The notes: generated from the sequence alone by a model not told the origin. A stretch of DNA of 43,539 nucleotides from Candidatus Omnitrophota bacterium (GCA_023819315.1 JAMWBQ010000002.1:1-43539), one strand, 5' to 3'. Shown: positions 2,262 to 43,539, numbered from the stretch's first letter. Translations and numbers: made by a program.

Positions 2262-2271
2262 GAGATAAATA

Positions 2272-5542: not shown

Positions 5543-5567
5543 TAGATACTTAACATTAATATTAGAT

Positions 5568-6821: not shown

Positions 6822-6832
6822 GTTAAAACCTT

Positions 6833-7678: not shown

Positions 7679-7689
7679 AAGGGGGAGTT

Positions 7690-8568: not shown

Positions 8569-8577
8569 GAGGCAGGA

Positions 8578-9294: not shown

Positions 9295-9300
9295 ATTATT

Positions 9301-24303: not shown

Positions 24304-24320
24304 TTTATAATAGATACTCT

Positions 24321-27152: not shown

Positions 27153-27183
27153 ATTTATTATAGTTTATTTGATAAGGTAGTTA

Positions 27184-27192
27184 TGTTATAAT
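27184..27192 (+). promoter_or_regulatory. Extended -10 promoter for mgtA
   Basis: TGTTATAAT (perfect TGnTATAAT) in the 49-bp intergenic gap, ending 9 nt before ATG 27202. Confidence 0.5.
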
Positions 27193-27201
27193 TGGTTAGC
27201 G

Positions 27202-29763: not shown

Positions 29764-29781
29764 TGTGGTAAGGAGTTGATT

Positions 29782-31215: not shown

Positions 31216-32937
31216 ATGGGAGAAGAAAAACCGTTAGAAAAAGATATTTTTTATCTTAAATTAGGTGAGATACTTATAAAATATGGAATTATTAACAACG
31301 AGCAATTGCACCATGTTTTAGATATACAAAAGAAGACAGGCAAAAAATTAGGAGAGATTTTAATAGAGGAGGGAATAGCTAATGAACAGATGATAACAGA
31401 AATATTAGCTCAACAACATAAACTTCCTATAATTGATCTTACCAAAGTAGAGCCAAAAGAAATTGTGTTTAACCTTTTTCCCCCTTCTTATCTTAAAAAA
31501 CATAATATAGCCCCTGTAGATGTGGATAGTGATTATGTAATAGTAGCGATAAATGACCCTTTAGATTTTGTAGTTCTACAGGAGTTAAAAAATATGAGTA
31601 ATTATAAGATAAGACCAGTTATGGCAAGTTTGAGCGATATAAAGAATTATTTAGATAAACACTTTGGGGACTTGCGTTCTGTAACAGAAGCAATAAAAGA
31701 GATTTCTACCAAGGATAGTTTAAAAGAGGAAGAGTTACCTTTGGAAGAATTAGAAGCTAAGGCTCAAGATGCTCCCATAGTTAAATTAGTTAATTCTGTA
31801 ATAATGGAGGCAGTGAAACAGAAAGCTTCCGATGTTCATTTTGAACCACAGAAAACAAAGTTACGTATTCGTTTTCGAGTAGATGGTATTCTTTACGAGA
31901 AGATGGTTGTGCCTAAAGAACTTCAGGCGGCAGTAATTTCTCGTATAAAGATTATTTCTGGTATGGATATCGCGGAGAGGAGGAAACCTCAGGATGGTAG
32001 AATTAGTTTAGGTAAAGATGCTCCTGATGTAGACGTAAGAGTATCTACCTTACCCGATATATTTGGTGAGAAAGTTGTGCTTAGATTATTGGATAAGAAG
32101 AGTATTCTAAGACCATTAGAAACGTTAGGGATGAATGAAGAGGAGTTGAGGATTGTTAAGAATCTTATTAGTAAACCTTACGGGATGATTTTGGTTACTG
32201 GTCCTACAGGTAGTGGTAAAACTACTACTTTATACTCTATACTTAATATTCTCAATGATGAGACTCGTAATATCGTTACTGTAGAGGATCCTGTAGAATA
32301 TGAATTAGAAGGGATTAATCAGACTTATATCAATGTGCGCGCCGGCTATACTTTTGCTACCGCTATAAGACATATTTTAAGACAGGACCCTGATGTGATA
32401 ATGGTAGGAGAGATAAGAGACACAGAAACAGCAGAAATTGCTATTCAATCAGCATTGACTGGTCATCTTGTACTTTCCACCCTTCATACTAACACGTCAG
32501 CGGGAGCAATTACAAGGCTTTTAGATATGAATATTGAGCCATTTTTAATAGGTTCAGCGGTTATAGGAGTAATAGCACAGAGATTAGTTCGCGAGCTATG
32601 TCCATTTTGTAAAGAGGAATATGTACCTACATCTTCGCTTTGGGAGTGGATTAATTCGTTACTTCCTGTTTCACAGACAGTTACGCTTGCCAAACCTAAA
32701 GGTTGTGATAAATGTTTTGGTATGGGATATAAAGGTAGGGTTGGTATATTTGAGATTTTTGCCATGGATGATTCTATAAGAGAGTTGGTATTAAAAAGAG
32801 CGACAGAATTAGAAATTGCAAAATTAGCAATTTCTAAAGGGATGGATATTTTAAAAATTTCCGGTTTGAAAAAAGCATTAGCCAAAATAACTTCTTTGGA
32901 AGAGGTTAGTCGTGTAGCTTTTGTGGAGGGTATATAA
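31216..32937 (+). CDS. pilB: Type IV pilus extension ATPase (PilB/GspE family) with N-terminal MshEN domain
   Basis: ASDVHFEP, RFRVDG, DIAERRKPQDGR, GPTGSGKTTT, TVEDPVE, LRQDPDVIMVGEIRD, TGHLVLSTLHTN, CPFC...CDKC Zn site. Confidence 0.92.
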   Translation: MGEEKPLEKDIFYLKLGEILIKYGIINNEQLHHVLDIQKKTGKKLGEILIEEGIANEQMITEILAQQHKLPIIDLTKVEPKEIVFNLFPPSYLKKHNIAPVDVDSDYVIVAINDPLDFVVLQELKNMSNYKIRPVMASLSDIKNYLDKHFGDLRSVTEAIKEISTKDSLKEEELPLEELEAKAQDAPIVKLVNSVIMEAVKQKASDVHFEPQKTKLRIRFRVDGILYEKMVVPKELQAAVISRIKIISGMDIAERRKPQDGRISLGKDAPDVDVRVSTLPDIFGEKVVLRLLDKKSILRPLETLGMNEEELRIVKNLISKPYGMILVTGPTGSGKTTTLYSILNILNDETRNIVTVEDPVEYELEGINQTYINVRAGYTFATAIRHILRQDPDVIMVGEIRDTETAEIAIQSALTGHLVLSTLHTNTSAGAITRLLDMNIEPFLIGSAVIGVIAQRLVRELCPFCKEEYVPTSSLWEWINSLLPVSQTVTLAKPKGCDKCFGMGYKGRVGIFEIFAMDDSIRELVLKRATELEIAKLAISKGMDILKISGLKKALAKITSLEEVSRVAFVEGI

Positions 32938-32938
32938 T

Positions 32939-34147
32939 ATGTCAATTTTTGTTTATAAAGTAAAAGATGAGACTGGTAGAGTATTTTCTGGTGTTGCTGA
33001 AGCAGAGGATATAAAATTATTGAAGAAACAACTAAGAGAAGCAGGTTACTATATTATAAATTTATCTCCTAAAAAAAGTAGAAGGAGTATTTTTTCTAAA
33101 CGAATAACCATGGATGATATTATTATTTTCACCCATCAACTTACATCTATATTAGAGGCAGGATTACCTATACTTAAATCTTTTGAGATTATTTGGAAAG
33201 AGACAGATAATCCTCAGATGCAAGTAGTAATCAGTCAAATACGTAATCGTCTTTCTACAGGAGCAAGTTTCTCCCAGGCGATCAATGAGTTCCCCGATGT
33301 TTTTCCTGTAATGTATCGAGCATTACTACCGGTAGCAGAGACAGGAGCTGGTTTTATACCTATATTGAAACGGATTTCAGAGTATCTTAATAACCAGAAA
33401 GAATTTATAGGTAAAATTAAGAAAGCTACTAGTTATCCTATGTTCGTTTTAGGATTTGCTATTTTGGTGGTTATACTTATGCTTGTAATAGTCGTTCCTA
33501 CATTTCAAAAAGTATTTGCCAAGATAAAAGTAGAACTACCTTATCTTACCCAACTTATTATTAAACTTTCTTTAATTATGCGTAGTTTTATTTTTTGGAT
33601 TATAGTAGGATTGGTTTTTTTAGGGATAATTATCCTTTACAAAAAATTATCTTCTCATCCCCAAGGTCGTCTTTTCCTTGACCGATTAAAATTAAAAATA
33701 CCTATATTTGGTAGGATTTTTTATATAGCATCATTGAGTAGATTGGTCCGTTCTTTGGGATTGCTCTTAGGTAGTGGTGTGCCTGTATCTCAGAGTATAG
33801 AGGTAGCAAAAGCTACGATATTAAATAAAGAGATAGAGAATCATTTGGTTTGGGTTGGGCAAAGAATTACTGAAGGAGAGTATCTTAGCGAAGCATTAAG
33901 AAGTACAAATATTTTCCCTTCCCTTCTCATCGAGATGGTAGCTGTGGGAGAACATAGTGGGTCTTTAGCAGAAATGCTTATAAAAGTTTCTCAGTATTTT
34001 GAGGAAGAGCTGGATAAAAGGATGAATAAATTTCTCTCTCTTCTCGAACCAGCATTAATTATTATTGTGGGAGGGATAGTTATGTTTGTCCTTTTGGCGA
34101 TTTATTTACCTATTTTTAAACTCTGGCAAGGTCTACCAAGAAGCTAA
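32939..34147 (+). CDS. pilC: Type IV pilus platform protein (PilC/GspF family)
   Basis: FTHQL..ILEAGLP, FP.VF, YP.FV, KLKIPIFG, GEHSGSL..ML, LLEPALIIIVG, AIYLPIF. Start moved to ATG 32939 after SD GGAGGG. Confidence 0.92.
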   Translation: MSIFVYKVKDETGRVFSGVAEAEDIKLLKKQLREAGYYIINLSPKKSRRSIFSKRITMDDIIIFTHQLTSILEAGLPILKSFEIIWKETDNPQMQVVISQIRNRLSTGASFSQAINEFPDVFPVMYRALLPVAETGAGFIPILKRISEYLNNQKEFIGKIKKATSYPMFVLGFAILVVILMLVIVVPTFQKVFAKIKVELPYLTQLIIKLSLIMRSFIFWIIVGLVFLGIIILYKKLSSHPQGRLFLDRLKLKIPIFGRIFYIASLSRLVRSLGLLLGSGVPVSQSIEVAKATILNKEIENHLVWVGQRITEGEYLSEALRSTNIFPSLLIEMVAVGEHSGSLAEMLIKVSQYFEEELDKRMNKFLSLLEPALIIIVGGIVMFVLLAIYLPIFKLWQGLPRS

Positions 34148-34157
34148 TAAATTATTA

Positions 34158-34186
34158 TTGCATTTATATATATTTTATGGTATAAA
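34158..34186 (+). promoter_or_regulatory. Sigma70-type internal promoter for the pilin gene
   Basis: TTGCAT (34158-34163), 17-nt spacer, TG-n-TATAAA (34181-34186), then strong SD GAGGAGGTGA. Confidence 0.55.
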
Positions 34187-34208
34187 TAATAAGAGGAGGT
34201 GATTAATT

Positions 34209-34559
34209 ATGAAAAGAGGTTTTACATTGGTAGAGTTATTAGTTGTTCTTGTTATCATAGGTGTTTTGATTGCCATAATTTTACCTAATACTTTGCGGGC
34301 AATTCGTCAAGCAAATACTAAGGAGTGTGCTTCTAATATTCGTGCTATTAACACAGCTATTCAGATGTGTTATACAGAAACAAGAAATTGGGCAAGTTGT
34401 GATACGATTGATGAGTTAACTGGAGGGGGATATTTAGAAGGAACACCTACCTGTCCTTTTGGTGTAGCGTACAATATTATAGGGGATGGTGCAAATGGAT
34501 ATCATGTAGATGAAAGTGCTCATTTTGCTGGCTGGCCACAAGCAGAGACACATAACTAA
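34209..34559 (+). CDS. Type IV pilin (probable major pilin)
   Basis: Class III signal peptide MKRG|FTLVELLVVLVIIGVLIAIILP with Glu5; 116 aa; four Cys; own promoter and strongest SD in the locus. Confidence 0.9.
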   Translation: MKRGFTLVELLVVLVIIGVLIAIILPNTLRAIRQANTKECASNIRAINTAIQMCYTETRNWASCDTIDELTGGGYLEGTPTCPFGVAYNIIGDGANGYHVDESAHFAGWPQAETHN

Positions 34560-34565
34560 GGATTG

Positions 34566-36047
34566 ATGTCAGAAGTTTTTTTAGGGTTAGGGTTAACCCA
34601 GCAGGAAATAATTTATGTTTATCTTGAAAAGATAAATAAAAAAAATTTTGTTTTCACTAAATGGGGTAGATTGGATATCCAATCTACCCTTTTTTCTCCC
34701 TCAGCTATTAACTCAGCTCTCCAACAAATTTTAGCTAAAGATAAATCTTATCCTCAAAAGATATTTATTTCTCTTCTTCGTAACGATATAGTTACTCACC
34801 AACTCGTTTTTCCCAAAATGTCCCATCAAGAGATGGAGGAAATTGTTCCTGGGGAAATTGAGAAGATACCTAATTTTTCCAATAAGGAGTTTGAATATAT
34901 CTATTTCCCTTACGAACCGACAGATAAGAAAATCAAAGTTATATTTGTAGCTATCCTTAAAGAGTTACTTAATTGTATTGTAGAAGGAATAAGACCGTTT
35001 TTAACTTCTATTTCCCTGGAGAGTATAGAAATATCACCCCTAAATTTTCTTAACGTTTTATATAGATTAGATAATCTTTCTGAAGGGATTTTGATAGTTT
35101 TGGATGATAAATGTAGTTATATTTTAATATTTTTGGATAATGAGTGTAAAATTTTTTATGTAAGTAACATAGGGAAATCTGAGTTGTATTTATCTAAAGA
35201 TGAGGAAAGAAAAGTTAATAGTATTGTTTTTTCAAATTGGCAGGAGGAATTGAGGCGATTGTTTAGAGCTTATAGTGTTGAATATAAACGCGATATCCCT
35301 CATAATGTTTGGTTAGTCTGGGATGATAAAGAGGATATACCTTTTGATAAATTATTAAACGAGGGATTAGGTAGCACAGTTAACAGATTAGATATAGAAC
35401 GATTATCTAACATTAAAGTTGAGGATAAAGAGTTGCTTAATCCTATCTACTGTATCGCTGTTAGTTCTTTAATTTCTTATATAAAAAACTATAAGAGTGA
35501 ATTTTCTTTTGAGAAATTGGTTTTACCGCTTAAATTTAAGAGAGAACTTAATAAACTGCTATTTTTATCTATTAGTTACATAATTATTATAGGTTTTCTT
35601 TTAGGTGGAATCATATTTATAAATTCTTTTCGTGAGAGAATTCTTACCAAAAAATTAAAAGAAATAAAGTCTGAAGTAGTTTTATTAGAAAGCAAAGCTA
35701 ATCAGCTAAGTGCAGAAATGAATGAACTTTTAGCTATTAAAGAGCGTTTACTCAATCAAGCTGAAGTAATAAGAGAGATTAATAGAATCTCATGGTCAAG
35801 AGTTTTTGGCGATATTGTGGAAAATTTACCTCAAGAGGTATCTCTAAATTCTTTTAAGGTAGCTAAATCGGGTAGGGTGGAGATAAAGGGAGAAACCTTA
35901 CAGATAGAGTCTGTAGCCCAGTTGATGCGGAATTTAGAAAATTCAAAAGTACTTACTGATCTAAAATTTGATTTTATGCGGAGTAAAGAGAAGGAAGGCA
36001 AGAGAACTTTTTCTTTTGGAATAATTGCGAGGTTGAAAGAAAGATGA
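34566..36047 (+). CDS. PilM-PilN fusion (GspL-like architecture)
   Basis: About 330-aa cytoplasmic PilM-like region, one TM helix (LLFLSISYIIIIGFLLGGIIFI), coiled coil, then PilN-type domain (ISWSRVFGDIVENLPQEVSL..VEIKG..VAQLMRNLENS). Start ATG 34566 or TTG 34563. Confidence 0.72.
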   Translation: MSEVFLGLGLTQQEIIYVYLEKINKKNFVFTKWGRLDIQSTLFSPSAINSALQQILAKDKSYPQKIFISLLRNDIVTHQLVFPKMSHQEMEEIVPGEIEKIPNFSNKEFEYIYFPYEPTDKKIKVIFVAILKELLNCIVEGIRPFLTSISLESIEISPLNFLNVLYRLDNLSEGILIVLDDKCSYILIFLDNECKIFYVSNIGKSELYLSKDEERKVNSIVFSNWQEELRRLFRAYSVEYKRDIPHNVWLVWDDKEDIPFDKLLNEGLGSTVNRLDIERLSNIKVEDKELLNPIYCIAVSSLISYIKNYKSEFSFEKLVLPLKFKRELNKLLFLSISYIIIIGFLLGGIIFINSFRERILTKKLKEIKSEVVLLESKANQLSAEMNELLAIKERLLNQAEVIREINRISWSRVFGDIVENLPQEVSLNSFKVAKSGRVEIKGETLQIESVAQLMRNLENSKVLTDLKFDFMRSKEKEGKRTFSFGIIARLKER

Positions 36048-36727
36048 GAATTATGAAAGGAGTAAGTATTTTTCGTATAAAGTTGTTAGGGGTAATAATA
36101 TGTATTTGTTACACTTTATTTCTTGGTTTTTTTGTAATAAAGAGTAGTTTAAGATGTAAAAGTATAGCTAACAAAGTAAGAGAAGAGGAGAATTTTCTCA
36201 ATGATTTTAGGGATGAAATTAAAAATTTTGAGGAGATTATATATAAGTTAAGGAAGGAGAAAGAAGAGTTTTCTCAGTATCTGTTTAGCGATAAAGATAT
36301 TGCTTCATTTTTAGAGAAGATTTCTTCTTTTGCTAAGGAAAGTAAAGTTAATATCATTAATATGCAGACAAAGAATTTTGAAAAGGTTGAAGAGGTGGAT
36401 AAAGAAGGAGTACTATCTCCTTTAGCAAAAGCAAAGGTATCAGCTAAGAAAGGTTCTCCTAATGATATGGGTAATCTTAAAGATAAGGATAAACGTAAGT
36501 CTTCTAAAGAAATTAGTGGCCCTATTATATCATTTTTGCCTATTGATATGAAGGTTGAAGGAACATTTCAAGATATTGTAAATTTTTTAATTTATTTAGA
36601 GAAATATCGTCAGCTCATCGCTTTACCTGAAATAGAAATAAGATTAAATAAATACCCCCTACTTACTTGTTCATTTGTATTAAATATTTATAGTCTTAGA
36701 GATTGGGAGGAAATAAAAAGAAAATGA
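36044..36727 (+). CDS. pilO: PilO/GspM-like alignment protein
   Basis: N-terminal TM, coiled coil, IASFLEKISSFAKES, LPIDMKVEGTFQDIVNFLIYLEKYRQLI; position after pilMN. Confidence 0.78.
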   Translation: MRIMKGVSIFRIKLLGVIICICYTLFLGFFVIKSSLRCKSIANKVREEENFLNDFRDEIKNFEEIIYKLRKEKEEFSQYLFSDKDIASFLEKISSFAKESKVNIINMQTKNFEKVEEVDKEGVLSPLAKAKVSAKKGSPNDMGNLKDKDKRKSSKEISGPIISFLPIDMKVEGTFQDIVNFLIYLEKYRQLIALPEIEIRLNKYPLLTCSFVLNIYSLRDWEEIKRK

Positions 36728-37167
36728 AAGTTTTTGTTTTATTATTCCTATTATTTTTTATAATCACTGATACGGGATGTAAAAAAGTAAATAAGACAAC
36801 CAGAGTTACCAAGAGAACAGATAAGAGAAGAATAGTTTATCTCTCAGAGACAGATGAACTGGTCAAATCGATTATGCGTCTTCAACCCTATGATTTTAAA
36901 TTTAGCCGTGACCCTTTTAAGCCATTATTAGGGGGGAGTTTAAGCAGATTAAATGTTAATATTGGAGACGAGATAAAGATTATAGGAGTAGTTAGATTAG
37001 AAGGTATCCCTTACGTTTTTATGGAGACTCCTTTTAAAAAGGGAGTATTTAAGAAAGGTGATGTTATTGGCGAATATACAATAGATGATATAGAGATAAA
37101 TAGGATAATTTTAAAGAAGGGAGATGAAAAGTTAGTGGTAAAATTAGGAGGGAATGATGAGGAGTAA
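36724..37167 (+). CDS. PilP-like lipoprotein
   Basis: MKVFVLLFLLFFIITDTGC lipoprotein-like signal, RDPFKP motif, C-terminal beta domain (KIIGVV..KKGDVIG..I..IE...IIL); ATGA overlap with the pilO stop; position before secretin. Confidence 0.7.
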   Translation: MKVFVLLFLLFFIITDTGCKKVNKTTRVTKRTDKRRIVYLSETDELVKSIMRLQPYDFKFSRDPFKPLLGGSLSRLNVNIGDEIKIIGVVRLEGIPYVFMETPFKKGVFKKGDVIGEYTIDDIEINRIILKKGDEKLVVKLGGNDEE

Positions 37168-38530
37168 GATTTGTGTTATTTTATTTATGATTTATATCTT
37201 AACTTTTTGTATATGTGTTTTTAGTAAGGATGAATTGAAAGAAGGGGAATTAATGAAAAAGAGTTCAGATATATCTAACGAGATTGAAACTTACCTTGAA
37301 GAAATTCGTCAACTTTCTCTACAGGGAAGGAAACAACCTTCTCAGCCAGAAATAATTTCTGGTTCAGAAAGGATTATTCAAGCTTACCTATCACCTCATA
37401 TAAAGGATAAAAAGATTGATTTAGAATTTAGTGATGCTAAGCTGGAAAATGTTCTAATAACTGTAGCTGAGGTGGCTGGTTTAAATTTAGTTATTGACCC
37501 TCTAATTAGGGAACAAAAAGTAGATTTACATTTAAAAGAGGTTCCTTTAGAGGATGCATTTAATATAATTTATAGTGCCTATGGATTAGCCTCCTATCAG
37601 GTGGGTAACTCCCTATTCATTTCTACAAAAGAAAATATTAGAAAACAGACAATTATGACCAAAGTGATAAAATTAGAAAACTTAAATGCCCAAGAAGCAA
37701 AAGAGATGATAAAAGATATTGCACGAACAGTTAATATTGGTGAAGAGACGAATACTTTAATCGTTATGGGTAATCCTGAGGAAATAAGTAAGATAGAGAG
37801 CATAATTGCAAAATTAGATAAACCTCAACCACAGGTTATTTTGGAAGCAAAAATTATTGAGATAGATAAGGATGCTTTAAAAGAAATTGGTATCGATTGG
37901 GCTAATTCAGTTACATTAAATCTTCAGGAAAGTCAACGCCAGAAAGCTCTATCCGACCCGGCAACTGCCTTAGAGACACCTTTTAAAATTTATCGCCTCT
38001 CACGCAATGCTATTCAATTTGATACAATTATTAAGATGTTGGAGAATAAAAATAAAGCCCATGTTTTATCTAGCCCAAGAGTAACCACCTTGAATAATAA
38101 AGAATCCACGATTTTTGTAGGTGATTTAGTTCCCTATACGGTTACTACCATTACCAGTGGAGCCACTACTACCGAGGTTAGATTCGCTGACCCGGGAATA
38201 AAACTAAAAATTACGCCTTCTATTATTGAGAATGATTTTGTAGTAATTAAAGTGGAGCCGGAGGTAAGTTATATCTATAGTTGGCGAGGTCCTAACGAAG
38301 AGTACCCCTGGATGAGAACAAGAAAGGCTACAGCTAATGTTAGGGTAAAAAATAACGAAACCTTTATAATGGGAGGTTTAATTACTAAAGAAGAAAGAGA
38401 GAATATTTATAGAGTACCATTCCTGGGTAATATTCCCATCTTGGGAGTACTTTTTTCTTACAAGAAAGATACAGTTATAGATAACGAATTGATAATTACT
38501 GTAACTCCTACCATTATCACCGGTAATTAG
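37154..38530 (+). CDS. pilQ: Secretin (PilQ/GspD family), short form without AMIN domains
   Basis: Signal peptide, N0 domain (IDLEFSDAKL..AEVAGLNLVID), LDKPQPQVILEAKIIE, LSSPRVTTLNN, GIKLKITP, MGGLI, VPFLGNIPILGVLF, ELIITVTP. Confidence 0.9.
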   Translation: MMRSKICVILFMIYILTFCICVFSKDELKEGELMKKSSDISNEIETYLEEIRQLSLQGRKQPSQPEIISGSERIIQAYLSPHIKDKKIDLEFSDAKLENVLITVAEVAGLNLVIDPLIREQKVDLHLKEVPLEDAFNIIYSAYGLASYQVGNSLFISTKENIRKQTIMTKVIKLENLNAQEAKEMIKDIARTVNIGEETNTLIVMGNPEEISKIESIIAKLDKPQPQVILEAKIIEIDKDALKEIGIDWANSVTLNLQESQRQKALSDPATALETPFKIYRLSRNAIQFDTIIKMLENKNKAHVLSSPRVTTLNNKESTIFVGDLVPYTVTTITSGATTTEVRFADPGIKLKITPSIIENDFVVIKVEPEVSYIYSWRGPNEEYPWMRTRKATANVRVKNNETFIMGGLITKEERENIYRVPFLGNIPILGVLFSYKKDTVIDNELIITVTPTIITGN

Positions 38531-38585
38531 TCTAATATGATTATTGGACAAAAATTATATCTAAAATTAGTTAAATGATTATTTG

Positions 38586-39329
38586 ATGATAGAGTATTTA
38601 ATTTTGGAGCAAAGAGAATCAAACCTTATAAGAGATTCTTCCCAGATAGTTTGTGATAATGATTTGTGGGAACACTGTCTTAAAGAGATATGTCTTTTAC
38701 GAGGGAAAGTTTATATGGAAGAAGGTCTCTACGATGAGAGTGTGTTAACTAAGGATGGCGAACTCAGAGAGGATTGTGATCTCTATTCTATCCATATCTC
38801 TGCTTTGGATAACGGTAAGGTAGTGGGGGTAGTTCGTATCACTCCCTTGCGTCAGGGAGAAGAGTTGGAACATATTGAGATAAATTATTTTTTTAAAAAA
38901 TTTAATTTACCCCGACATGCTCACACGTTTAATTATTTGCTTAACCAATTATTTACCAATAATAAAAGAGTAGCGGAGGTTTCTCGTTTAGCGGTTGATG
39001 AGGAGTATAGACGATTCAGGAATGTTCATAGCCAAGTTGGTATGGTTCTTATCACTATGTGCTATTCGTGGGGATTAGAGAACCAGATAACCGATGCTTT
39101 TATCATCCAGGGAAATAAATATTGCACTAGTGACATATACGAAAGATTAGGGTTTAGGATAGTTAGGGATATTGTAACAAAAATACCTTTAGAGCCATTT
39201 TTTGATGGTAGTGATATTTGTCAGCTTATGCATTTAGATTTAAATAACCCCACAGCTCTTTTTATTAAATTCGTAGATAGATTTAAACAAATTTATCAAT
39301 CGGCTAAAATAGTTAAACGCGCAAATTAG
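38586..39329 (+). CDS. GNAT-fold acyltransferase of LuxI/FeeM (acyl-ACP-dependent) type
   Basis: LRGKVYMEEG...DGELREDCDLYSIHI...GKVVGVVRITP and VAEVSRLAVDEEYR match the R..V(F/Y)..E.G / D..D / G..R..P / E.SR.(A/C)V pattern of AHL and N-acyl amino acid synthases; YERLGF is GNAT motif B. Start ATG 38586 or TTG 38583. Confidence 0.72.
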   Translation: MIEYLILEQRESNLIRDSSQIVCDNDLWEHCLKEICLLRGKVYMEEGLYDESVLTKDGELREDCDLYSIHISALDNGKVVGVVRITPLRQGEELEHIEINYFFKKFNLPRHAHTFNYLLNQLFTNNKRVAEVSRLAVDEEYRRFRNVHSQVGMVLITMCYSWGLENQITDAFIIQGNKYCTSDIYERLGFRIVRDIVTKIPLEPFFDGSDICQLMHLDLNNPTALFIKFVDRFKQIYQSAKIVKRAN

Positions 39330-39359
39330 ATTATTACAATCTATAGAAAGGAGTAAGCG

Positions 39360-39752
39360 ATGAATAATATAAAGAATCAAGAACGGAGGAAAAGTCCACG
39401 GTTTACTATATCTTTGCCAGTAAATTATAACTTTAATATTTTACCTAAACGTGGTAGTGTAAAAATACGAGCAAGGTCTAAAGATATAAGTAAAGATGGG
39501 ATCAGTTTTGTTTCTAGCAATCAACCACCAAAATCTTTCATAGATATCCAAATTGAATTATTACCCTCTCCCAAAAATAAGATAGTTAAGAGGGTATCTT
39601 ATAGCTTTATTAAAGCAAAAGTAAAAATACTTCATAGCCAACCAGTATCTAAAGAGGATATAGATATATTTTCTACTGGTGGATGTTTTGTTAAGATGAG
39701 TAAAAAAGATGCAAGTTTACTTAGAGAACTTTTAGAACAGTATCAAAAGTGA
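39360..39752 (+). CDS. Stand-alone PilZ-domain protein
   Basis: QERRKSPRF (RxxxR) and DISKDG (DxSxxG); C-terminal G..F..M...D..LL..LL; SD AAGGAG. Confidence 0.85.
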   Translation: MNNIKNQERRKSPRFTISLPVNYNFNILPKRGSVKIRARSKDISKDGISFVSSNQPPKSFIDIQIELLPSPKNKIVKRVSYSFIKAKVKILHSQPVSKEDIDIFSTGGCFVKMSKKDASLLRELLEQYQK

Positions 39753-39777
39753 GAGAGAAAGAAAAATCATTTTATAG

Positions 39778-39915
39778 ATGTCAAGGAAGATACATCCTGA
39801 TTGTGAAATAGATATAGATTACAATAGAGGAGATGCCTTCTTAATGTTAGCAAAGGTAACCTTAGGGGAATTGTTTTATAACCATATAGTGTGGTTAAAA
39901 GATAGAAAAATTTAA
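39778..39915 (+). CDS. Possible 45-aa ORF of unknown function
   Basis: MSRKIHPDCEIDIDYNRGDAFLMLAKVTLGELFYNHIVWLKDRKI* fills the gap between the PilZ and ACP genes; no clear SD. Confidence 0.3.
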   Translation: MSRKIHPDCEIDIDYNRGDAFLMLAKVTLGELFYNHIVWLKDRKI

Positions 39916-39948
39916 TTTTAATTAATAATGGATTAGGAAGGTAGAAAA

Positions 39949-40209
39949 ATGAGTAGGATGATTCCCAAAGAAATTGAAAAAAAGATAAAAGAGATATTTT
40001 TAAAAGAGAAAGGGATCGAACCCGATAAGATTAAACCCGAGTCTTTATTAGTAGAAGATTTAGGGATAGATTCTTTCTCAGCTATTGAAATTATATATGC
40101 AATAGAAGAAACATTTAAAATAGATATTCCTGGAGGAGCTTTTAAGAATGTAGAAAGATTTAGCGATATAGTTAATTATATAGATAAGCGTTTAAAAAGT
40201 AAAAAATGA
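39949..40209 (+). CDS. Acyl carrier protein
   Basis: 86 aa; LVEDLGIDSFSAIEIIYAIEETFKIDIP with phosphopantetheine Ser in GxDS; SD AGGAAGG. Confidence 0.93.
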   Translation: MSRMIPKEIEKKIKEIFLKEKGIEPDKIKPESLLVEDLGIDSFSAIEIIYAIEETFKIDIPGGAFKNVERFSDIVNYIDKRLKSKK

Positions 40210-40215
40210 TATTTT

Positions 40216-41283
40216 ATGGATAAAGAAAAGATAAAAAGATGTAAACGGTGTGCTTTACCTGAAACTTATCCTGGCGTAAAATTTAGTGAGGAGGGTATTT
40301 GTAATTATTGCTTTTACTACGATATTTATAAAGAGCGGGAGAGTTCGATTAAAATACAATTAAAAAAAGAGTTTTTGAATTTGATAAATAGTTTAAAGAA
40401 AAAGAAAAAAAAATACGATTGTGTAGTAGCATATAGTGGAGGTAAAGATAGTACTTTTCTTTTGTACTTCTTGAAGAATAAATTTAAGTTAAATATATTA
40501 GCTCACACTTTGGATAATTGTTTTCTTTCTCCTCAAGCAGTGAATAATATAAAGGTAATAGTTAAGAGATTAAATATTGCACATATCTCTACAAAAATAC
40601 CCACTGAGTTATTGGTAAAGATATTAAAGTCAGATCTATCTTCTCCCTTGCCCTATCCGAAAGAACTTTTATCTATGATGAGTAGTGTATGCGTTGTCTG
40701 TCAAGGGATGGTTTTTGGCACAACGCTTAAGCAAGCGCAGAAATATAAGGTCCCACTTATGTTTATTGGATATACGCCTGGACAATATCCTATTATTAGC
40801 TTAGAAAATTATTTTAAGGTAAAATCTTGTGTTTATTTTTCCTCACAGGTATACAAAGATGACCCATTGGATATAATAAAGATAGCAAGAGATCCTTTAG
40901 ATGAACGATTTGGTAAAGAGATAGAACCTTACTATTTTAAAAGTCAGTATATTGAAAAAGATGAATTTGTTCCTAGCGTACTCTTCCCCTTTCATGCCCT
41001 TGTAGATTATGATGAAAAGATAATTTATGAAAAAATTTATGATTTGGGATGGAAGAAACCTCAGGATACAGATCCCTGTTCTACAAACTGTTTGTTAAAT
41101 ATGATTGGTAACTATTTCACGATGAAAAGATTTGGTTACCATCCTTATATTGGAGAATTAAGTTTTCTTGTAAGAGAAGGTAAATTATCGTATCAAAATG
41201 CTTTACAGTACGAATATATGGATGAAGCTGGCTTTGCTTCCCATCCCATAGTTAAACAATTAGGCTTGAGTAAATATTTATAG
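40216..41283 (+). CDS. PP-loop (AANH superfamily) ATPase, N-acetyl-sugar amidotransferase / thiotransferase-like
   Basis: N-terminal CKRC..LPETYPG..F...GICNYC, YDCVVAYSGGKDS PP-loop, central CVVC, GW..P.DTDPCSTNCLLN, GYHPY..E....VREG. Confidence 0.8.
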   Translation: MDKEKIKRCKRCALPETYPGVKFSEEGICNYCFYYDIYKERESSIKIQLKKEFLNLINSLKKKKKKYDCVVAYSGGKDSTFLLYFLKNKFKLNILAHTLDNCFLSPQAVNNIKVIVKRLNIAHISTKIPTELLVKILKSDLSSPLPYPKELLSMMSSVCVVCQGMVFGTTLKQAQKYKVPLMFIGYTPGQYPIISLENYFKVKSCVYFSSQVYKDDPLDIIKIARDPLDERFGKEIEPYYFKSQYIEKDEFVPSVLFPFHALVDYDEKIIYEKIYDLGWKKPQDTDPCSTNCLLNMIGNYFTMKRFGYHPYIGELSFLVREGKLSYQNALQYEYMDEAGFASHPIVKQLGLSKYL

Positions 41284-41285
41284 TT

Positions 41286-42833
41286 ATGGATAAGGCTTTA
41301 GATATTACCAACTTAAAAAAGATAGTTAAAATAGCTACTAAATTGTTTGAACCACTTAAAAATTATTTTTTATCACCCTATTCTGTTATTCCTATCCTTT
41401 CTCAAGTTTTAGGATTGAATACCCCTTTACTCGGCACAGGTAGTTCCCCTTATTCTATTTTTTTCATAGCTATTGATTTAGCAAAAGAAAAGTCTTTATT
41501 GAAAGAGGCATTTGAAATACCATTTTCCCAAAAAAGAATTATCGTTGACGAAATTTACGATGTAATAGCACCTTTTCTTTTGGGAGAAGAAAAAAATTAT
41601 ATTCATTTTTTAATTACTACGCGTTATAAAGGATATAATAAGAGCAAAATAAAAGAAAGGGTAGAAATTATTAAAGAATTTCTTTCAATTTTTCCTATGG
41701 ATAACCTCGGTGATTTTGCTCATATAGCCCATTACGGCTATGAGGAAGATTTGAATAGAGAGAACGCTTTTATAAGAAACTTTTCCCAAAGAGAGAAAGA
41801 AGCTTGGTTCCGAGATTCTTATCCCATAGTTAATGAGCTTGTATTGAGAAATAAAAGATTTGAGATTAAAGGATGGATTATTCTTGTGGCAAATTCCACC
41901 GATCAGCTACTTAGAGATAAAGAATTAAGAAAAAGAAAGATTTTTCAAGCTGCTAAGTTAGCTAATGTGTTGGGAGCAAAGATTGTTGGGATGGGGGGAT
42001 TAATAGCTTCTTTTGCTGAAGGAGGATACTATTTAACGGAAAGGTTTAAAGATGTAGGATTTACTACGGGACATGCTTATACGATAGGGAATTTACTTCA
42101 AAATGCAGAGAGAGTGAGTAATAAAGTAGGTTTAATTTTGACTAAAGCAATAGTGGGTATAGTGGGAGCTGCAGGGTCTATTGGTTCTGGTTGTGCGAAG
42201 CTTTTTGTAGATAAAGGTATAAGAAGATTAATTTTAGTGGAAACAACTGGTTTTGCTATAAAAAGAAAGCTTGAAATTTTAATTAAAGAATTAAGAGAGA
42301 TTAAAAAGGATGTAGATCTATTTATTTCAGATGATCTTAACGATATTAAAAGAGCTGATTTAGTAATTGTAGCAACCAATTCACCTTTTTCTATAATAAA
42401 GTCAAAATATTTAAAAGAAGGGGCAATTGTTATAGATGATTCTTTTCCTAAGAATGTATCTAAGAATATTCTTGAGCAACGTAAAGATATAATACTTTTA
42501 GAAGGAGGAGCAGTAACTTTACCTTTATATACAGATATTGATATCGCCAGGAATATGCCAGATTTAATGGATGCTCCTTTAACAAGGTTAATTAGTTGTA
42601 AAGAGGTGTATGGATGTTTTGCTGAAGTTTTGACTCTGGCAATAAGTGGACATAGAGGCAATTATGGTTTAGGAGTAGCTAACCCTAAGTTAGCTAGAGA
42701 TATAATCAATAAAGCGAATAAACTTGGTTTTCAACCTGCTCCTTTCCAATGTTTTGATCACGGAATAGAAGAGGATAGATTCAGAATAGTAAGAAGAATA
42801 ATAAAAAGGAGAATAGATCGTGAATTATTTTAA
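41286..42833 (+). CDS. Acyl-ACP reductase-like NAD(P)-dependent oxidoreductase (COG5322-type) with about 140-aa N-terminal extension
   Basis: FAHIAH, A..LGAKIVGMGG, FTTGHAYT, VGIVGAAGSIGSG Rossmann motif, IVIDDSFPKNV, LEGGAV, YGCFAEVLTLA (cf. catalytic ACFAE of cyanobacterial AAR), A..LGF. Confidence 0.75.
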   Translation: MDKALDITNLKKIVKIATKLFEPLKNYFLSPYSVIPILSQVLGLNTPLLGTGSSPYSIFFIAIDLAKEKSLLKEAFEIPFSQKRIIVDEIYDVIAPFLLGEEKNYIHFLITTRYKGYNKSKIKERVEIIKEFLSIFPMDNLGDFAHIAHYGYEEDLNRENAFIRNFSQREKEAWFRDSYPIVNELVLRNKRFEIKGWIILVANSTDQLLRDKELRKRKIFQAAKLANVLGAKIVGMGGLIASFAEGGYYLTERFKDVGFTTGHAYTIGNLLQNAERVSNKVGLILTKAIVGIVGAAGSIGSGCAKLFVDKGIRRLILVETTGFAIKRKLEILIKELREIKKDVDLFISDDLNDIKRADLVIVATNSPFSIIKSKYLKEGAIVIDDSFPKNVSKNILEQRKDIILLEGGAVTLPLYTDIDIARNMPDLMDAPLTRLISCKEVYGCFAEVLTLAISGHRGNYGLGVANPKLARDIINKANKLGFQPAPFQCFDHGIEEDRFRIVRRIIKRRIDRELF

Positions 42834-43539
42834 TTTATCCGCATTAATAGGAAGTAGCTCGGCAATAGTGATAAGTTTATTTGTATATTTTAAAGACAGG
42901 AAAAACCAAATTAATAAAATATTTGCTGTGTTAAGTATTAGTTCTGGACTATGGGGATTGGGATATTTTTCTGCCATCACTGTTATAGATAAATCGCTTG
43001 CATTATTTTATAGCCGAACGATGCACGCTATAGCTACACTTATTCCCCCCTTTTATTTTCATTTTGTTTTAATTATATCTAATTTTAATGAAAGAGTTAG
43101 AAAAAGATTATTATCTATTATGTATGGATTAGGTTTTGTCTTGTTGTTTTTTATTGGTACACCATGGTTTGTAAAGGATATGAAGCCAAAGCTTATTTTC
43201 CCTTGGTATAGTGAAGCTGGTATCGTATATAATTTCTTTACCATATATTTTTTTATTTTGATAGTTTATAGTTTTATAATTTTATGGCAAAAGATTAAAT
43301 ATTCCTTGGGTAGCAGAAGGATGCAAATTAAATATATATTATTTGCTTCAATATTTGGATTCTTAGGAGGAGCTACTACTTTCCCCTTAGTTTACAATAT
43401 ACCTATTTTACCGATTGGTATTATTTTATTCTCTTTCTATCCTTTAGTAATAGCCTACGCTATTATTAGACACCGGCTTATGGATATAAGGGTAGCGGTA
43501 ACCAAGGCGGGTATATTTTTTATTCTCTACGCAATAGTA
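42820..43539 (+). CDS. Membrane sensor with N-terminal 7TM (HisKA_7TM-like) domain; 3'-truncated by the window and absent from the ORF track
   Basis: GTG 42820 after SD AAGGAG; open for 240 codons to the window end: MNYFNLSALIGSSSAIVISLFVYFKDRKNQINKIFAVLSISSGLWGLGYF...IPPFYFHFV...QIKYILFASIFGFLGGATTF...IAYAIIRHRLMDI; multiple TM helices with the YAI.R..L.DI signature. Confidence 0.82.
   Translation, partial: MNYFNLSALIGSSSAIVISLFVYFKDRKNQINKIFAVLSISSGLWGLGYFSAITVIDKSLALFYSRTMHAIATLIPPFYFHFVLIISNFNERVRKRLLSIMYGLGFVLLFFIGTPWFVKDMKPKLIFPWYSEAGIVYNFFTIYFFILIVYSFIILWQKIKYSLGSRRMQIKYILFASIFGFLGGATTFPLVYNIPILPIGIILFSFYPLVIAYAIIRHRLMDIRVAVTKAGIFFILYAIV

What the first reader, a model, noticed from the sequence alone, without database searches (positions are those of the whole stretch)
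38586..43539. Candidate undescribed ACP-templated lipid-signal synthase plus 7TM receptor system next to the type IV pilus operon
Seen: six co-oriented genes: LuxI/FeeM-like acyltransferase, PilZ protein, ACP, Cys-rich PP-loop ATPase, acyl-ACP-reductase-like enzyme, 7TM sensor. The last four are tightly coupled (gaps of 6 nt and 2 nt, then a 14-nt overlap). No fab genes flank the ACP. Known: LuxI and FeeM enzymes transfer acyl groups from acyl-ACP (FeeM uses its own ACP, FeeL); AAR reduces acyl-ACP to aldehyde; AANH enzymes adenylate carbonyls for N or S substitution; HisKA_7TM domains head histidine kinases and diguanylate cyclases. Inference: a compact pathway builds a modified acyl molecule on a dedicated ACP, senses it with the co-encoded receptor, and relays through c-di-GMP/PilZ to the pilus, i.e. 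a non-LuxR quorum-sensing or host-contact circuit. I do not recognise this gene combination from any described system.
Basis: partly seen in the sequence, partly recalled or inferred. Interest (0 to 1): 0.85.

Follow-up and report, generated by a model that had tools for sequence, protein, structure and literature searches.

The report
Acyl-enzyme cassette coupled to sensor kinase
In an uncultivated Omnitrophota bacterium, a few lipid-handling enzymes with their own carrier protein sit directly in front of a seven-helix membrane sensor, a pairing that recurs in several bacterial phyla and that I found no study of, while the two genes beside them belong to a separate signalling module.

Summary
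The six co-oriented ORFs, their spacing and their family assignments are real. Comparative genomics splits them into two modules. Module A is a FeeM-type acyltransferase plus a PilZ protein. It was found in 1 of 201 sampled Omnitrophota genomes. Elsewhere it lies beside another PilZ, a GAF histidine kinase and a REC-HD-GYP protein, with no ACP or pilus genes. Module B is a specialised ACP, a NASAT-like PP-loop enzyme, an AAR/TAD-like cysteine enzyme and a HisKA_7TM sensor. In relatives it lies in a type II FAS-like cluster that ends in a 7TM-GAF histidine kinase. An AAR-like gene is immediately followed by a HisKA_7TM protein in 40 of 80 loci from several phyla, including Nitrospirota 21/22 and Patescibacteria 5/5. 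All 40 keep the catalytic cysteine. Four of the five 7TM paralogues in this genome have their own ACP upstream. I read module B as an acyl-thioester-processing cassette functionally tied to a membrane sensor kinase; whether the kinase reads its product is inferred, not shown. The six-gene quorum circuit feeding the pilus is not supported. The sensor's output domain is missing because the contig ends in a repeat, and module B is disrupted in the sister species.

The parts
38583..39329 (+). P1, FeeM-family GNAT N-acyltransferase (module A)
   Evidence: Pfam FeeM E 3.6e-8, 33.8 bits, above cut-off. A small family: 17 homologues among 171 candidates. Found in 1 of 201 Omnitrophota genomes.
39360..39752 (+). 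P2, single-domain PilZ protein (module A)
   Evidence: Pfam PilZ E 1.5e-5, above cut-off. RxxxR (RKSPR) and DxSxxG (DISKDG) motifs read from the translation. Orthologue follows P1 in 3 of 3 metagenome loci with flanks.
39753..39948 (.). Largest intergenic gap of the block (196 nt); holds a remnant of a SAM-methyltransferase gene
   Evidence: G001 keeps about 200 nt more here, with a 73-aa ORF carrying a methyltransferase motif-I-like stretch. Similarity to the methyltransferase part of the C132 REC-methyltransferase is weak (E 0.002).
39949..40209 (+). P3, specialised acyl carrier protein (module B)
   Evidence: PP-binding E 9.5e-10. TIGR00517 60.8 bits, below the 70.45 cut-off, whereas the C160 AcpP scores 119.5. 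A DSF serine motif is present.
40216..41283 (+). P4, NASAT-like PP-loop ATP pyrophosphatase with a Zn-ribbon tetracysteine and three further invariant Cys
   Evidence: TIGR03573 135 bits, below cut-off. AF2 model pLDDT 91. Best fold match is the Legionella NASAT 8WEX, TMq 0.60, followed by [4Fe-4S] thiolases. Invariant C9, C12, C29, C32, SGGKDS 74-79, C159, C162 and C292 in 45 sequences.
41286..42833 (+). P5, AAR/TAD-like NAD(P)-binding cysteine enzyme with an extra helical N-terminal domain (residues 1-133)
   Evidence: phmmer to AAR over residues 146-485, with Cys444 aligned to the AAR cysteine in FACFAE; the 6JZZ entry title names it C294. AF2 pLDDT 93.8. Foldseek top hits are the carmabin TAD (E 1.3e-20) and AAR (TMt 0.79-0.80).
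42820..43539 (+). P6, HisKA_7TM sensor, 5' part only (240 aa); the contig ends in a repeat shared with paralogues
   Evidence: Pfam HisKA_7TM E 8.3e-17. The last 116-127 nt are 98-100% identical among C165, C68 and C50. Sensors in the syntenic position in relatives are 7TM-GAF-HATPase_c proteins of 703-725 aa.
31216..38530 (+). Context: type IV pilus genes (PilB with MshEN, PilC, pilin, PilM/N-like, two small ORFs, secretin)
   Evidence: Pfam T2SSE+MshEN, T2SSF, N_methyl, PilN and Secretin.

Best explanation
The block is two adjacent modules, not one six-gene system. Module B (P3-P6) is the more interesting part. A dedicated ACP carries an acyl chain. The AAR/TAD-like enzyme P5 takes the chain onto Cys444 and releases it, either by NAD(P)H-dependent reduction to an aldehyde or by amidation. 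The NASAT-like PP-loop enzyme P4 adenylates a carbonyl of that chain or its product and substitutes nitrogen (or sulphur). The hydrophobic product enters the membrane, where the translationally coupled HisKA_7TM kinase reads it and signals through CheY-like receivers. In this reading the enzyme is the signal-generating partner of the kinase, and the pair reports acyl-thioester or lipid status. Module A (P1-P2) is a separate FeeM-type N-acyltransferase plus a c-di-GMP-type PilZ receptor. Shown: the gene content, the conserved residues, the folds and the conserved gene linkage. Inferred: the substrate, the product, the order of P4 and P5, and that the kinase senses the product.
For: Enzyme features. 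P5 aligns to AAR end to end with the catalytic Cys and the GxGxxG motif. Its fold matches AAR and TAD. P4 has the NASAT tetracysteine motif and PP-loop (motif definition read in passages of PMC10607449), and its best fold match is NASAT. Pairing of P4 and P5. They are adjacent at 49-60% identity in G011, G023 and G014, and P5-clade loci L033-L041 show the same pair, with an ACP called nearby in 4 of those 9. L039 has ACP-P4-P5 followed by an AMP-binding ligase, and L137 has ACP, AAR-like, P4-like and 7TM in a row. Link to the sensor. An AAR-like gene is followed directly by a HisKA_7TM gene in 40 of 80 loci and within three genes in 46 of 80: Nitrospirota 21/22, Patescibacteria 5/5, Omnitrophota 9/17 directly and 15/17 within three genes. 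Gaps are mostly -20 to +20 nt. All 40 kinase-adjacent enzymes keep the Cys and the nucleotide motif. The linked state lies on several deep branches of the family tree, needing at least 9 changes. In the one Nitrospiraceae locus scanned (L054), a FadL/TodX outer-membrane channel gene lies divergently upstream. In this genome, 4 of 5 7TM paralogues have a sub-cut-off ACP 1.0-2.6 kb upstream. Separation of the modules is shown.
Against: Within P5's own clade (10 rows), only the window has the kinase directly adjacent. The others have a nitroreductase and/or an FAD oxidase in between, and the locus looks like a biosynthetic cluster with a regulator at its edge. The window has no enzyme that would load the ACP, and this genome lacks close orthologues of the cluster's KAS, KR and DH genes. 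In the sister genome G001, P3, P4, P5 and P6 all carry lesions, so the cassette is dispensable there. P6's output domain is missing, and HisKA_7TM is also fused to GAF-HD-GYP in Omnitrophota. Seen from the kinase side, the commonest upstream neighbour in this order is a methyltransferase family (8 of 30), against AAR-like in 4 of 30. REC-KAS and REC-methyltransferase fusions suggest signal flow from kinase to enzyme. P4-like proteins also occur without an ACP, next to carbamoyltransferases. Patescibacteria are generally thought to lack fatty acid synthesis (recalled), so the substrate there may not be acyl-ACP.
Confidence: 0.45

Rival explanations
1. The signal flows the other way. The 7TM-GAF kinase senses a membrane or envelope state, as in the DesK logic, and controls a specialised lipid pathway after translation, through receiver domains fused to or encoded beside the enzymes. 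In this reading ACP, P4 and P5 are the regulated output, not the source of the signal.
For: G003 has a REC-ketoacyl-synthase fusion between a 7TM kinase and an ACP. A REC-methyltransferase lies directly upstream of the C132 7TM gene. PilZ-methyltransferase fusions lie beside 7TM kinases. Single-domain receivers follow the kinases in Omnitrophota loci. The related methyltransferase family is the upstream neighbour in 8 of 30 kinase loci.
Against: In Nitrospirota (21/22) and Patescibacteria (5/5) the conserved unit is the enzyme plus the kinase, in that order and tightly spaced. No receiver-fused enzyme was seen among the ORFs called there. P5 and P4 themselves have no receiver domain.
Confidence: 0.25
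2. One reading: all six genes form one circuit. P1 and the ACP-bound pathway build one acyl signal, P6 senses it, and the signal reaches the pilus through c-di-GMP and the PilZ protein.
For: All six genes are co-oriented directly downstream of pilQ. P2 has the canonical c-di-GMP-binding motifs. PilB carries an MshEN domain. In other metagenomes P1 sits with two PilZ genes, and in L117, the one locus scanned with Pfam, also with a GAF kinase and a REC-HD-GYP protein. That is a signalling neighbourhood linked to c-di-GMP.
Against: P1 was found in 1 of 201 sampled Omnitrophota genomes, while P4 relatives occur in 71 of 201. None of the P4-P5 loci examined has P1 or P2. P1 loci have no ACP, P4 or P5 homologue within 8 kb, and no homologue of this window's pilus proteins. 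A decayed methyltransferase gene separates the two halves. In G001 only P3-P6 are disrupted.
Confidence: 0.1
3. Module B is the remnant of an ordinary type II FAS/PKS-like secondary-metabolite cluster, comparable with koreenceine or prodigiosin-MAP chemistry. P5 is the reductive release step, and the kinase is only a cluster-situated regulator or a chance neighbour.
For: Relatives carry KAS-KR-ACP-DH-KAS-P4-P5-(nitroreductase)-FAD amine oxidase. COG5322 domains are proposed as ACP-thioester reductases in KecF (passages of PMC6498172), and the same is said for PigE-like proteins (recalled). PigB-like FAD oxidases fit that chemistry (recalled).
Against: No aminotransferase was found in the loci scanned. 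The enzyme-kinase pair persists in Nitrospirota and Patescibacteria, where my KAS, KR, DH and ACP queries hit nothing in the locus. The ACP-7TM association recurs four times in one 1.9-Mb genome.
Confidence: 0.12
4. In this genus the cassette is decaying and does nothing: a reduced leftover of the ancestral cluster that happens to be still open in G000.
For: KAS, KR, DH and the FAD oxidase are missing at the locus. G001 has a lost ACP start and a frameshift in the ACP gene, a 2-nt deletion in P4, a 1-nt insertion in P5 and a truncated 7TM gene, while pilQ, P1 and P2 are intact.
Against: In G000 all four ORFs are intact and retain every invariant catalytic residue of their families. The same minimal ACP-P4-P5 triad occurs in L039. 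Two of the G001 lesions lie in homopolymer runs and could be assembly errors.
Confidence: 0.08

Closest known systems
Cyanobacterial acyl-ACP reductase (AAR) of the AAR-ADO alkane pathway
   Same: P5 aligns over the whole of AAR, with the catalytic Cys and the Rossmann motif. Fold TMt is 0.79-0.80. An ACP lies next to it.
   Different: P5 scores 72 bits against a cut-off of 450 for TIGR04058. It has an extra 133-residue helical N-terminal domain. Its partners are a PP-loop enzyme and a sensor kinase, not an aldehyde deformylating oxygenase (I did not search for ADO).
Putative terminal amidation domain (TAD) of the carmabin/vatiamide NRPS-PKS (preprint 10.1101/2024.10.28.620694; abstract and sections 5 and 8 read)
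   Same: TAD is the best Foldseek match (E 1.3e-20). It has an invariant Cys beside the NAD site. The preprint notes that stand-alone homologues exist ('Cluster 4') and that a few TAD clusters have a PP-loop NAD synthetase gene next door. P5 is coupled to a PP-loop enzyme with a 2-nt gap.
   Different: P5 is a free-standing protein with an ACP, not the C-terminus of an NRPS. TAD chemistry and its nitrogen source are themselves unproven.
PigE / KecF / TamH-type thioester-reductase domains fused to aminotransferases
   Same: P5 matches the PigE N-terminal region (E 2.2e-31; PDB 4PPM). Relatives of the cluster have type II KAS/KR/DH genes and an FAD amine oxidase, as these pathways do (KecF passages).
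   Different: No aminotransferase domain or gene was seen. A PP-loop enzyme stands in its place.
N-acetyl sugar amidotransferase (NASAT: WbuX, WbpG, LpNASAT 8WEX)
   Same: Shares the tetracysteine CXXCXn[GN]XCXXC and SGGKDS motifs. NASAT is the best structural match.
   Different: P4 is below the family cut-off, 135 against 203 bits. It has three further invariant cysteines. Its neighbours are an ACP and an AAR-like enzyme, not sugar or O-antigen genes. All 120 listed homologues are unnamed or generically named.
FeeM/FeeL N-acyl amino acid synthase and LuxI-type synthases
   Same: P1 passes the Pfam FeeM threshold. Two homologues also carry a precomputed LuxI-family hit.
   Different: P1 itself has no LuxI hit at E 0.1 or better. 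P1 homologues elsewhere have no ACP nearby. It is below cut-off for the exosortase-associated acyltransferase family, 30 against 112 bits.
DSF/Rpf signalling (fatty-acid signal, sensor kinase RpfC, REC-HD-GYP RpfG, PilZ adaptors) and DesK-DesR membrane sensing (both recalled, not tested)
   Same: These are working analogies only. Rpf combines a lipid-type signal enzyme, a sensor kinase, REC-HD-GYP and PilZ, as in the P1 neighbourhood of L117. DesK is a kinase tied to a lipid-modifying enzyme.
   Different: I did not look for an RpfF-type crotonase or a desaturase. The sensor domain here is HisKA_7TM. The enzymes are of unrelated families.

Membership tests
FeeM-type N-acyl amino acid synthase (PF21926) | Profile score at or above Pfam's gathering cut-off | tested here: met
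   33.8 bits against 27.
FeeM-type N-acyl amino acid synthase (PF21926) | Works with a dedicated ACP encoded beside it (FeeL-like; recalled) | tested here: inconclusive
   An ACP lies 620 nt downstream in the window, but 0 of 3 homologous loci have an ACP within 8 kb.
LuxI autoinducer synthase (PF00765) | Profile match | tested here: not met
   No hit at E 0.1 or better for P1. Only 2 of 17 homologues carry a precomputed PF00765 hit.
PEP-CTERM/exosortase-associated acyltransferase (TIGR03694) | Score at or above the curated cut-off | tested here: not met
   30.2 bits against 111.95.
Housekeeping AcpP (TIGR00517) | Score at or above the equivalog cut-off, and a place in the fab cluster | tested here: not met
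   P3 scores 60.8 against 70.45. The C160 ACP scores 119.5 and sits between the fabG-like and fabF-like genes.
Carrier protein (PF00550) | PP-binding domain with the DSx serine | tested here: met
   39 bits against 20.8. A DSF motif is in the translation. One AcpS-type PPTase is present in the genome.
NASAT / WbuX (TIGR03573) | Score at or above the curated cut-off | tested here: not met
   135.1 bits against 203.2.
NASAT / WbuX (TIGR03573) | Tetracysteine motif CXXCXn[GN]XCXXC plus PP-loop SGGXDS (definition from PMC10607449) | tested here: met
   C9, C12, C29, C32 and SGGKDS are invariant in 45 sequences. The definition was read.
NASAT / WbuX (TIGR03573) | Acts on an N-acetyl sugar in a glycan locus | not testable with these tools
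   The neighbours are an ACP and an AAR-like enzyme. A DegT-type aminotransferase lies 9 kb upstream, but no glycan genes are adjacent.
Acyl-ACP reductase AAR (TIGR04058) | Score at or above the equivalog cut-off | tested here: not met
   72.4 bits against 449.7.
Acyl-ACP reductase AAR (TIGR04058) | Catalytic cysteine and NAD(P)-binding GxGxxG in an AAR fold | tested here: met
   Cys444 aligns with the AAR catalytic Cys. TMt is 0.79-0.80. The residues are conserved in 40 of 40 kinase-adjacent homologues.
Acyl-ACP reductase AAR (TIGR04058) | Partner aldehyde deformylating oxygenase | not tested
   I ran no search for ADO.
Terminal amidation domain (TAD) | Located at the C-terminus of a terminal NRPS module | tested here: not met
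   P5 is free-standing. No NRPS domains were found in P1-P6.
HisKA_7TM sensor histidine kinase | N-terminal 7TM domain (PF16927) | tested here: met
   62.2 bits against 28.6.
HisKA_7TM sensor histidine kinase | HisKA/HATPase_c transmitter | tested here: inconclusive
   The gene is cut at residue 240 by the contig end. Syntenic relatives have GAF plus HATPase_c. Contigs C160 and C185 begin with near-identical kinase C-terminal tails. However, GAF-HD-GYP fusions of this 7TM domain also exist in the phylum.
PilZ c-di-GMP receptor | PilZ domain with RxxxR and D/NxSxxG motifs | tested here: met
   25.7 bits against 22.5. RKSPR and DISKDG are in the translation. Binding itself was not tested.

The most novel reading that the evidence does not exclude
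AAR/TAD-like cysteine enzymes are the signal-generating partners of HisKA_7TM sensor kinases. This would be a widespread, unstudied class of two-component systems (Nitrospirota, Patescibacteria, Omnitrophota, some Pseudomonadota and Clostridia) in which an enzyme turns an intracellular acyl-thioester into a membrane-soluble aldehyde, amide or amidine that the 7TM domain reads. In Omnitrophota the class has multiplied into paralogous sensor cassettes, each with its own ACP. The P4-P5 pair could also supply the nitrogen-inserting partner that has been sought for TAD-type terminal amidation.
Probability: 0.3. Interest if true: 0.8.

Novelty: new variant of a known kind. Interest (0 to 1): 0.6.

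Why it matters
HisKA_7TM is a large sensor family, and I know of no ligand for it; the only papers my search found merely list the domain. A conserved, catalytically intact enzyme placed directly in front of it gives a concrete and testable idea of what these kinases read. This includes nitrifying Nitrospira and the host-dependent, ultra-small Patescibacteria and Omnitrophota, whose lipid supply is an open question. The tight pairing of an AAR/TAD-like enzyme with a PP-loop amidotransferase-like enzyme and an ACP also bears on the unsolved chemistry of terminal amidation domains. If the cassette makes fatty amides, amidines or related compounds, that would be a new route to such lipids in bacteria.

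Tried and rejected
- Complex prediction of P5 with the 240-residue P6 fragment gave 'no answer'. I use it neither for nor against binding.
- Sequencing runs: none was listed, and no RNA holder was listed.
- Rfam scan of 38000-43539: only one sub-threshold snoRNA-like hit and no riboswitch.
- Promoter and terminator scan: counts equal to shuffles, so it is uninformative.
- Search for the 3' part of P6 in the genome. No contig continues it; all five 7TM genes stop at contig ends, and only short kinase tails are found at the starts of C160 and C185. G001 breaks at the same places.
- The idea that C165 continues into C185 (the TPR-GAF kinase, the same order as in L117) could not be tested.
- The 350-aa protein between the ACP and the 7TM gene on C68 shows no similarity to the P1 family (hhalign probability 0.3%). 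The 495-aa protein on C50 shows no similarity to the G003 452-aa protein.
- Atlas search on the P5 N-terminal domain: no usable feature hit, and structural TM only about 0.3.
- I could not test whether C159, C162 and C292 of P4 sit together as an Fe-S site. Model coordinates are not exposed, and the PDB profile alignments covered only the N-terminal part. The Fe-S reading rests on recall of the TtuA/NcsA pattern.
- No true WbuX was found in the control genomes for comparison.
- One call failed on a placeholder that was too short.

Full report
WHAT IS THERE. The window is an entire 43,539-bp contig (C165) of a 1.88-Mb, 192-contig genome that is 92.5% complete. Titles of the closest related records name Candidatus Omnitrophota.

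The profile searches give the following.
- P1: FeeM family, above Pfam's cut-off.
- P2: PilZ, above cut-off.
- P3: PP-binding.
- P6: HisKA_7TM, above cut-off (all).
- P4: the N-acetyl sugar amidotransferase family TIGR03573, at 135 bits (cut-off 203).
- P5: acyl-ACP reductase at 72 bits (cut-off 450) and the PigE N-terminal region.

Upstream is a type IV pilus set whose PilB has an MshEN domain. KAS, KR and DH queries find nothing on this contig.

THE CONTIG END. P6 is cut at residue 240. The genome has five HisKA_7TM genes, and every one runs into a contig end. Their 7TM parts are only 30-40% identical. The last 116-127 nt of C165, C68 and C50 are nevertheless 98-100% identical, and C138 and C132 share a second type of junction. 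The middle parts are absent from the bin. Contigs C160 and C185 both start with near-identical C-terminal tails of a kinase ATPase domain. The sister genome G001 breaks at the same places.

So the output domain of P6 cannot be read here. In relatives, the sensors in the syntenic position are 703-725-aa proteins. The G023 copy has 7TM, GAF and HATPase_c. The Atlas also lists 7TM-GAF-HD-GYP proteins in this phylum, so the kinase reading is probable but not shown.

TWO MODULES, NOT ONE SYSTEM. P1 was found in 1 of 201 sampled Omnitrophota genomes, G000 itself, and in G001. The 5.8-billion-protein search returned 17 homologues among 171 candidates. A metagenome scan gave 5 loci. In the 3 with flanks on both sides, P1 is followed by a further small ORF and then by the P2 orthologue (E 1.5e-34 to 3e-38). 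No homologue of the ACP, P4, P5 or this window's pilus proteins was found there.

Pfam on one of these loci (L117; the other two have ORFs of the same sizes) shows this order: three glycosyltransferases, an MFS-HD-GYP fusion, P1, PilZ, PilZ, a TPR-GAF histidine kinase, a REC-HD-GYP protein and an ECF sigma factor. G000 has a 52%-identical orthologue of that TPR-GAF kinase as the first complete gene of C185.

Conversely, P4 and P5 are adjacent at 49-60% identity in G011, G023 and G014 without P1 or P2, and the P5-clade loci L033-L041 show the same pair.

The 196-nt gap between P2 and P3 holds the remnant of a methyltransferase gene, which G001 retains as a 73-aa ORF. In G001, pilQ, P1 and P2 are intact, while module B carries four lesions:
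- the ACP has lost its start codon and has a 1-nt insertion;
- P4 has a 2-nt deletion;
- P5 has a 1-nt insertion;
- the 7TM gene is truncated.

Two of these lesions lie in homopolymer runs and could be assembly errors.

MODULE B, THE ENZYMES.

P3 is a specialised ACP. The AcpP equivalog is on C160, in an rpmF-plsX-...-fabG-acpP-fabF cluster (119.5 bits, against 60.8 for P3). One AcpS-type PPTase is present.

P5 aligns to cyanobacterial AAR over residues 146-485. Cys444 (YGCFAE) lies on the AAR cysteine in FACFAE, the residue mutated in the 6JZZ entry AAR-C294S. The AlphaFold model (pLDDT 93.8) adds an all-helical domain at residues 1-133, for which no relative was found. The best Foldseek matches are the putative terminal amidation domain (TAD) of the carmabin pathway (E 1.3e-20) and AAR (TMt 0.79-0.80).

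The TAD preprint (10.1101/2024.10.28.620694; abstract and sections 5 and 8 read) makes four relevant points. The chemistry and the nitrogen source are unknown. No partner enzyme was found to co-occur consistently. A few clusters have a PP-loop NAD synthetase gene next door. One group of homologues consists of discrete proteins outside biosynthetic clusters.

P4 has the two NASAT signatures, the tetracysteine motif and SGGKDS (definition in PMC10607449, passages read). It also has three more invariant cysteines, C159, C162 and C292, across 45 sequences down to 38% identity. Its model (pLDDT 91) matches the Legionella NASAT best (TMq 0.60), and after that the [4Fe-4S]-dependent thiolases NcsA, TtuA and LarE. 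The idea that the three cysteines bind an Fe-S cluster rests on my recall of those enzymes, and I could not test it. All 120 listed homologues of P4, out of 829 at E 1e-5 or better, are unnamed or generically named.

MODULE B, THE CONTEXT IN RELATIVES. In G023 the order is KAS, KR, ACP, dehydratase, KAS, P4, P5, FAD amine oxidase, then a 7TM-GAF kinase. G014 and L034 have the same order, plus a nitroreductase gene after P5 (scanned in L034). The closest P5 relative is L039 (57% identity, sister at 99% support). It has only ACP-P4-P5 followed by an AMP-binding ligase. L137 has ACP, AAR-like, P4-like and 7TM in a row. L084 has START-AAR, AAR-like, P4-like, a 7TM kinase, a receiver, two KAS genes, an ACP and a dehydratase.

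The window therefore holds a reduced form of the cluster. G000 has no close orthologues of the cluster's KAS, KR and DH genes; the best hits, at 31-49%, include the housekeeping fab genes on C160.

P4 relatives occur in 71 of 201 Omnitrophota genomes at E 1e-10 or better. Of the 29 loci fetched, only 2 have an AAR-like neighbour. Two have an ACP plus an AMP ligase. Many have small membrane proteins and a carbamoyltransferase instead.

THE CONSERVED LINK TO THE SENSOR. I scanned one genome per species of GTDB with a P5 alignment and took the 80 best loci. I called ORFs in them and marked AAR-like and 7TM proteins with profiles built from the first hits.
- In 40 of 80 loci, the first same-strand gene after the AAR-like gene (tandem copies counted as one) is a HisKA_7TM protein. 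In 46 of 80 it lies within three genes.
- In 3 loci the contig ends first, and in 1 locus no AAR-like ORF was called.
- By the record titles: Nitrospirota 21/22, Patescibacteria 5/5, Omnitrophota 9/17 directly (15/17 within three genes), and one each of Rhodocyclaceae, Gammaproteobacteria and Clostridia.
- Bacillota 0/18, Chloroflexota 0/4 and others 0/5 show no such link.
- Gaps are mostly -20 to +20 nt.

In the Chloroflexota-type loci, a receiver protein and a very large ORF with a C-terminal receiver follow the AAR-like gene in 3 of the 4 labelled loci and in the unlabelled locus L081. Pfam on L099 shows these to be REC-GGDEF and a multi-GAF hybrid kinase.

All 40 kinase-adjacent enzymes keep the catalytic Cys and GxGxxG. 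On a quick maximum-likelihood tree the linked state sits on several deep branches. It needs at least 9 changes, compared with 28.8 for shuffled labels. Kin share labels, so this shows clustering, not independence. In the Nitrospiraceae locus L054, a FadL/TodX outer-membrane channel gene is divergent from the pair.

In Omnitrophota a common form is a PlsC-type acyltransferase, a START/SRPBCC-AAR fusion, a 7TM-GAF kinase, and then one or two CheY-like receivers.

Within G000, 4 of the 5 7TM genes have a sub-cut-off ACP 1.0-2.6 kb upstream.
- C68 has two AAR-like ORFs, one of them in pieces, an ACP and an unknown 350-aa protein.
- C50 has a KAS, an ACP and an unknown 495-aa protein.
- C138 has an ACP and a fragmented HMG-CoA-reductase-like gene.

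THE VIEW FROM THE KINASE SIDE. PF16927 matches 59 places in 19 of 26 genomes of the order. I examined 30 of the 59 loci, each with about 1.5 kb of flank. Four of the 30 are from G000 and G001. The gene directly upstream of the 7TM gene is:
- a methyltransferase family, alone or fused to REC or PilZ, in 8 loci;
- AAR-like in 4;
- an FAD amine oxidase in 4;
- a KAS in 2;
- an unknown protein preceded by an ACP in 2;
- something else or nothing in 10.

G003 carries a REC-ketoacyl-synthase fusion between a 7TM kinase and an ACP. These fusions are the main argument for the rival reading, in which the kinase controls the enzymes.

HOW IT MOST LIKELY WORKS. I commit to the following at about 0.45. 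P5 off-loads an acyl chain from P3 through Cys444. P4 performs an ATP-dependent nitrogen (or sulphur) substitution on a carbonyl of that chain. The 7TM kinase reads the membrane-soluble product. The conserved residues, the folds and the gene linkage are shown. The substrate, the product, the order of the two enzymes and the sensing step are inferred. The reverse flow (0.25), the single six-gene circuit (0.10), an ordinary metabolite cluster with an incidental kinase (0.12) and a decaying remnant (0.08) remain open.

WHAT IS KNOWN. Paper searches gave these results:
- HisKA_7TM: 2 census or review papers (listing only).
- COG5322: 3 papers; I read passages of the koreenceine paper.
- 'N-acetyl sugar amidotransferase' with 'acyl carrier protein': 0 papers.
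- 'acyl-ACP reductase' with 'histidine kinase' and 'operon': 5 papers, none on this topic by title.
- Omnitrophota with 'acyl carrier protein': 5 papers, 3 listed, none on this topic by title.

I found no description of an AAR-like/7TM-kinase module or of a P4-P5-ACP triad in these searches.

VERDICT. The parts all belong to known kinds of system. What is new is their wiring, so I rate it a new variant of a known kind, with interest 0.6.

Noticed in passing
G000 contig ends: C165:42820-43539, C68:3886-4654, C50:22282-23059, C138:47510-48534, C132:14020-14745; contig starts C160:1-150 and C185:1-96: All five HisKA_7TM genes break the assembly. Their sensor parts have diverged (30-40% aa identity), but they share near-identical downstream sequence, and two contigs begin with near-identical kinase tails. 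This suggests paralogues with homogenised transmitter modules (gene conversion or recent duplication).
   Followed up: partly
L020 (G003:C1) 5339-6949, minus strand: A response-regulator receiver domain is fused to a complete beta-ketoacyl synthase (536 aa). It lies between a 7TM-GAF kinase and an ACP. I do not know this architecture from the literature (recalled; I did not search for it).
   Followed up: partly
L024 (G000:C132) 7572-9023; L021 16860-18209; L162, L163, L168, L169, L171, L178, L180, L185: One methyltransferase family is the commonest gene directly upstream of HisKA_7TM kinases in this order (8 of 30 loci). It occurs alone, with an extra N-terminal region, or fused to REC or PilZ. 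Its substrate is unknown.
   Followed up: partly
window 39753-39948: The gap between the PilZ gene and the ACP gene holds a decayed methyltransferase gene. G001 keeps a 73-aa ORF and about 200 nt more.
   Followed up: partly
L032 (G001:C86) 2084-5455: In the sister species the ACP, P4, P5 and 7TM genes all carry frame-breaking lesions, while pilQ, P1 and P2 are intact. Downstream there follow an ACP, the 350-aa unknown protein and a second 7TM gene, as on G000 C68.
   Followed up: yes
G000:C138:46038-47506: An ACP is followed by an HMG-CoA-reductase-like gene that is split by a stop and a frameshift, directly upstream of a 7TM gene.
   Followed up: partly
G000:C172:1-11651: A further FAS/PKS-like set (two KAS genes, an ACP, a KR-like gene and several unknown ORFs) lies apart from the housekeeping fab cluster on C160.
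   Followed up: no
L054 7513-13267; L099 7007-16896: In a Nitrospiraceae locus, a FadL/TodX channel gene is divergent from the AAR-like/7TM-GAF kinase pair. In an Anaerolineae locus, the AAR-like gene sits after a hydrolase, a V4R protein and a hexapeptide transferase, and before REC-GGDEF and a 1661-aa multi-GAF hybrid kinase.
   Followed up: partly
window 31216-32937: The pilus ATPase PilB carries an N-terminal MshEN domain, which is known (recalled) as a c-di-GMP-binding domain. The genome also has at least seven HD-GYP-type matches.
   Followed up: no
window 21166-30906: Upstream of the pilus genes lie a UvrD-type helicase plus a PD-(D/E)XK nuclease (an AddAB-like pair), a P-type cation ATPase and a DegT-family aminotransferase.
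   Followed up: no
L019 (G000:C68) 2815-3867; L022 (G000:C50) 8802-10289: Two proteins of 350 and 495 aa, with no Pfam family and no similarity to each other's counterparts, sit between a specialised ACP and a 7TM gene.
   Followed up: partly
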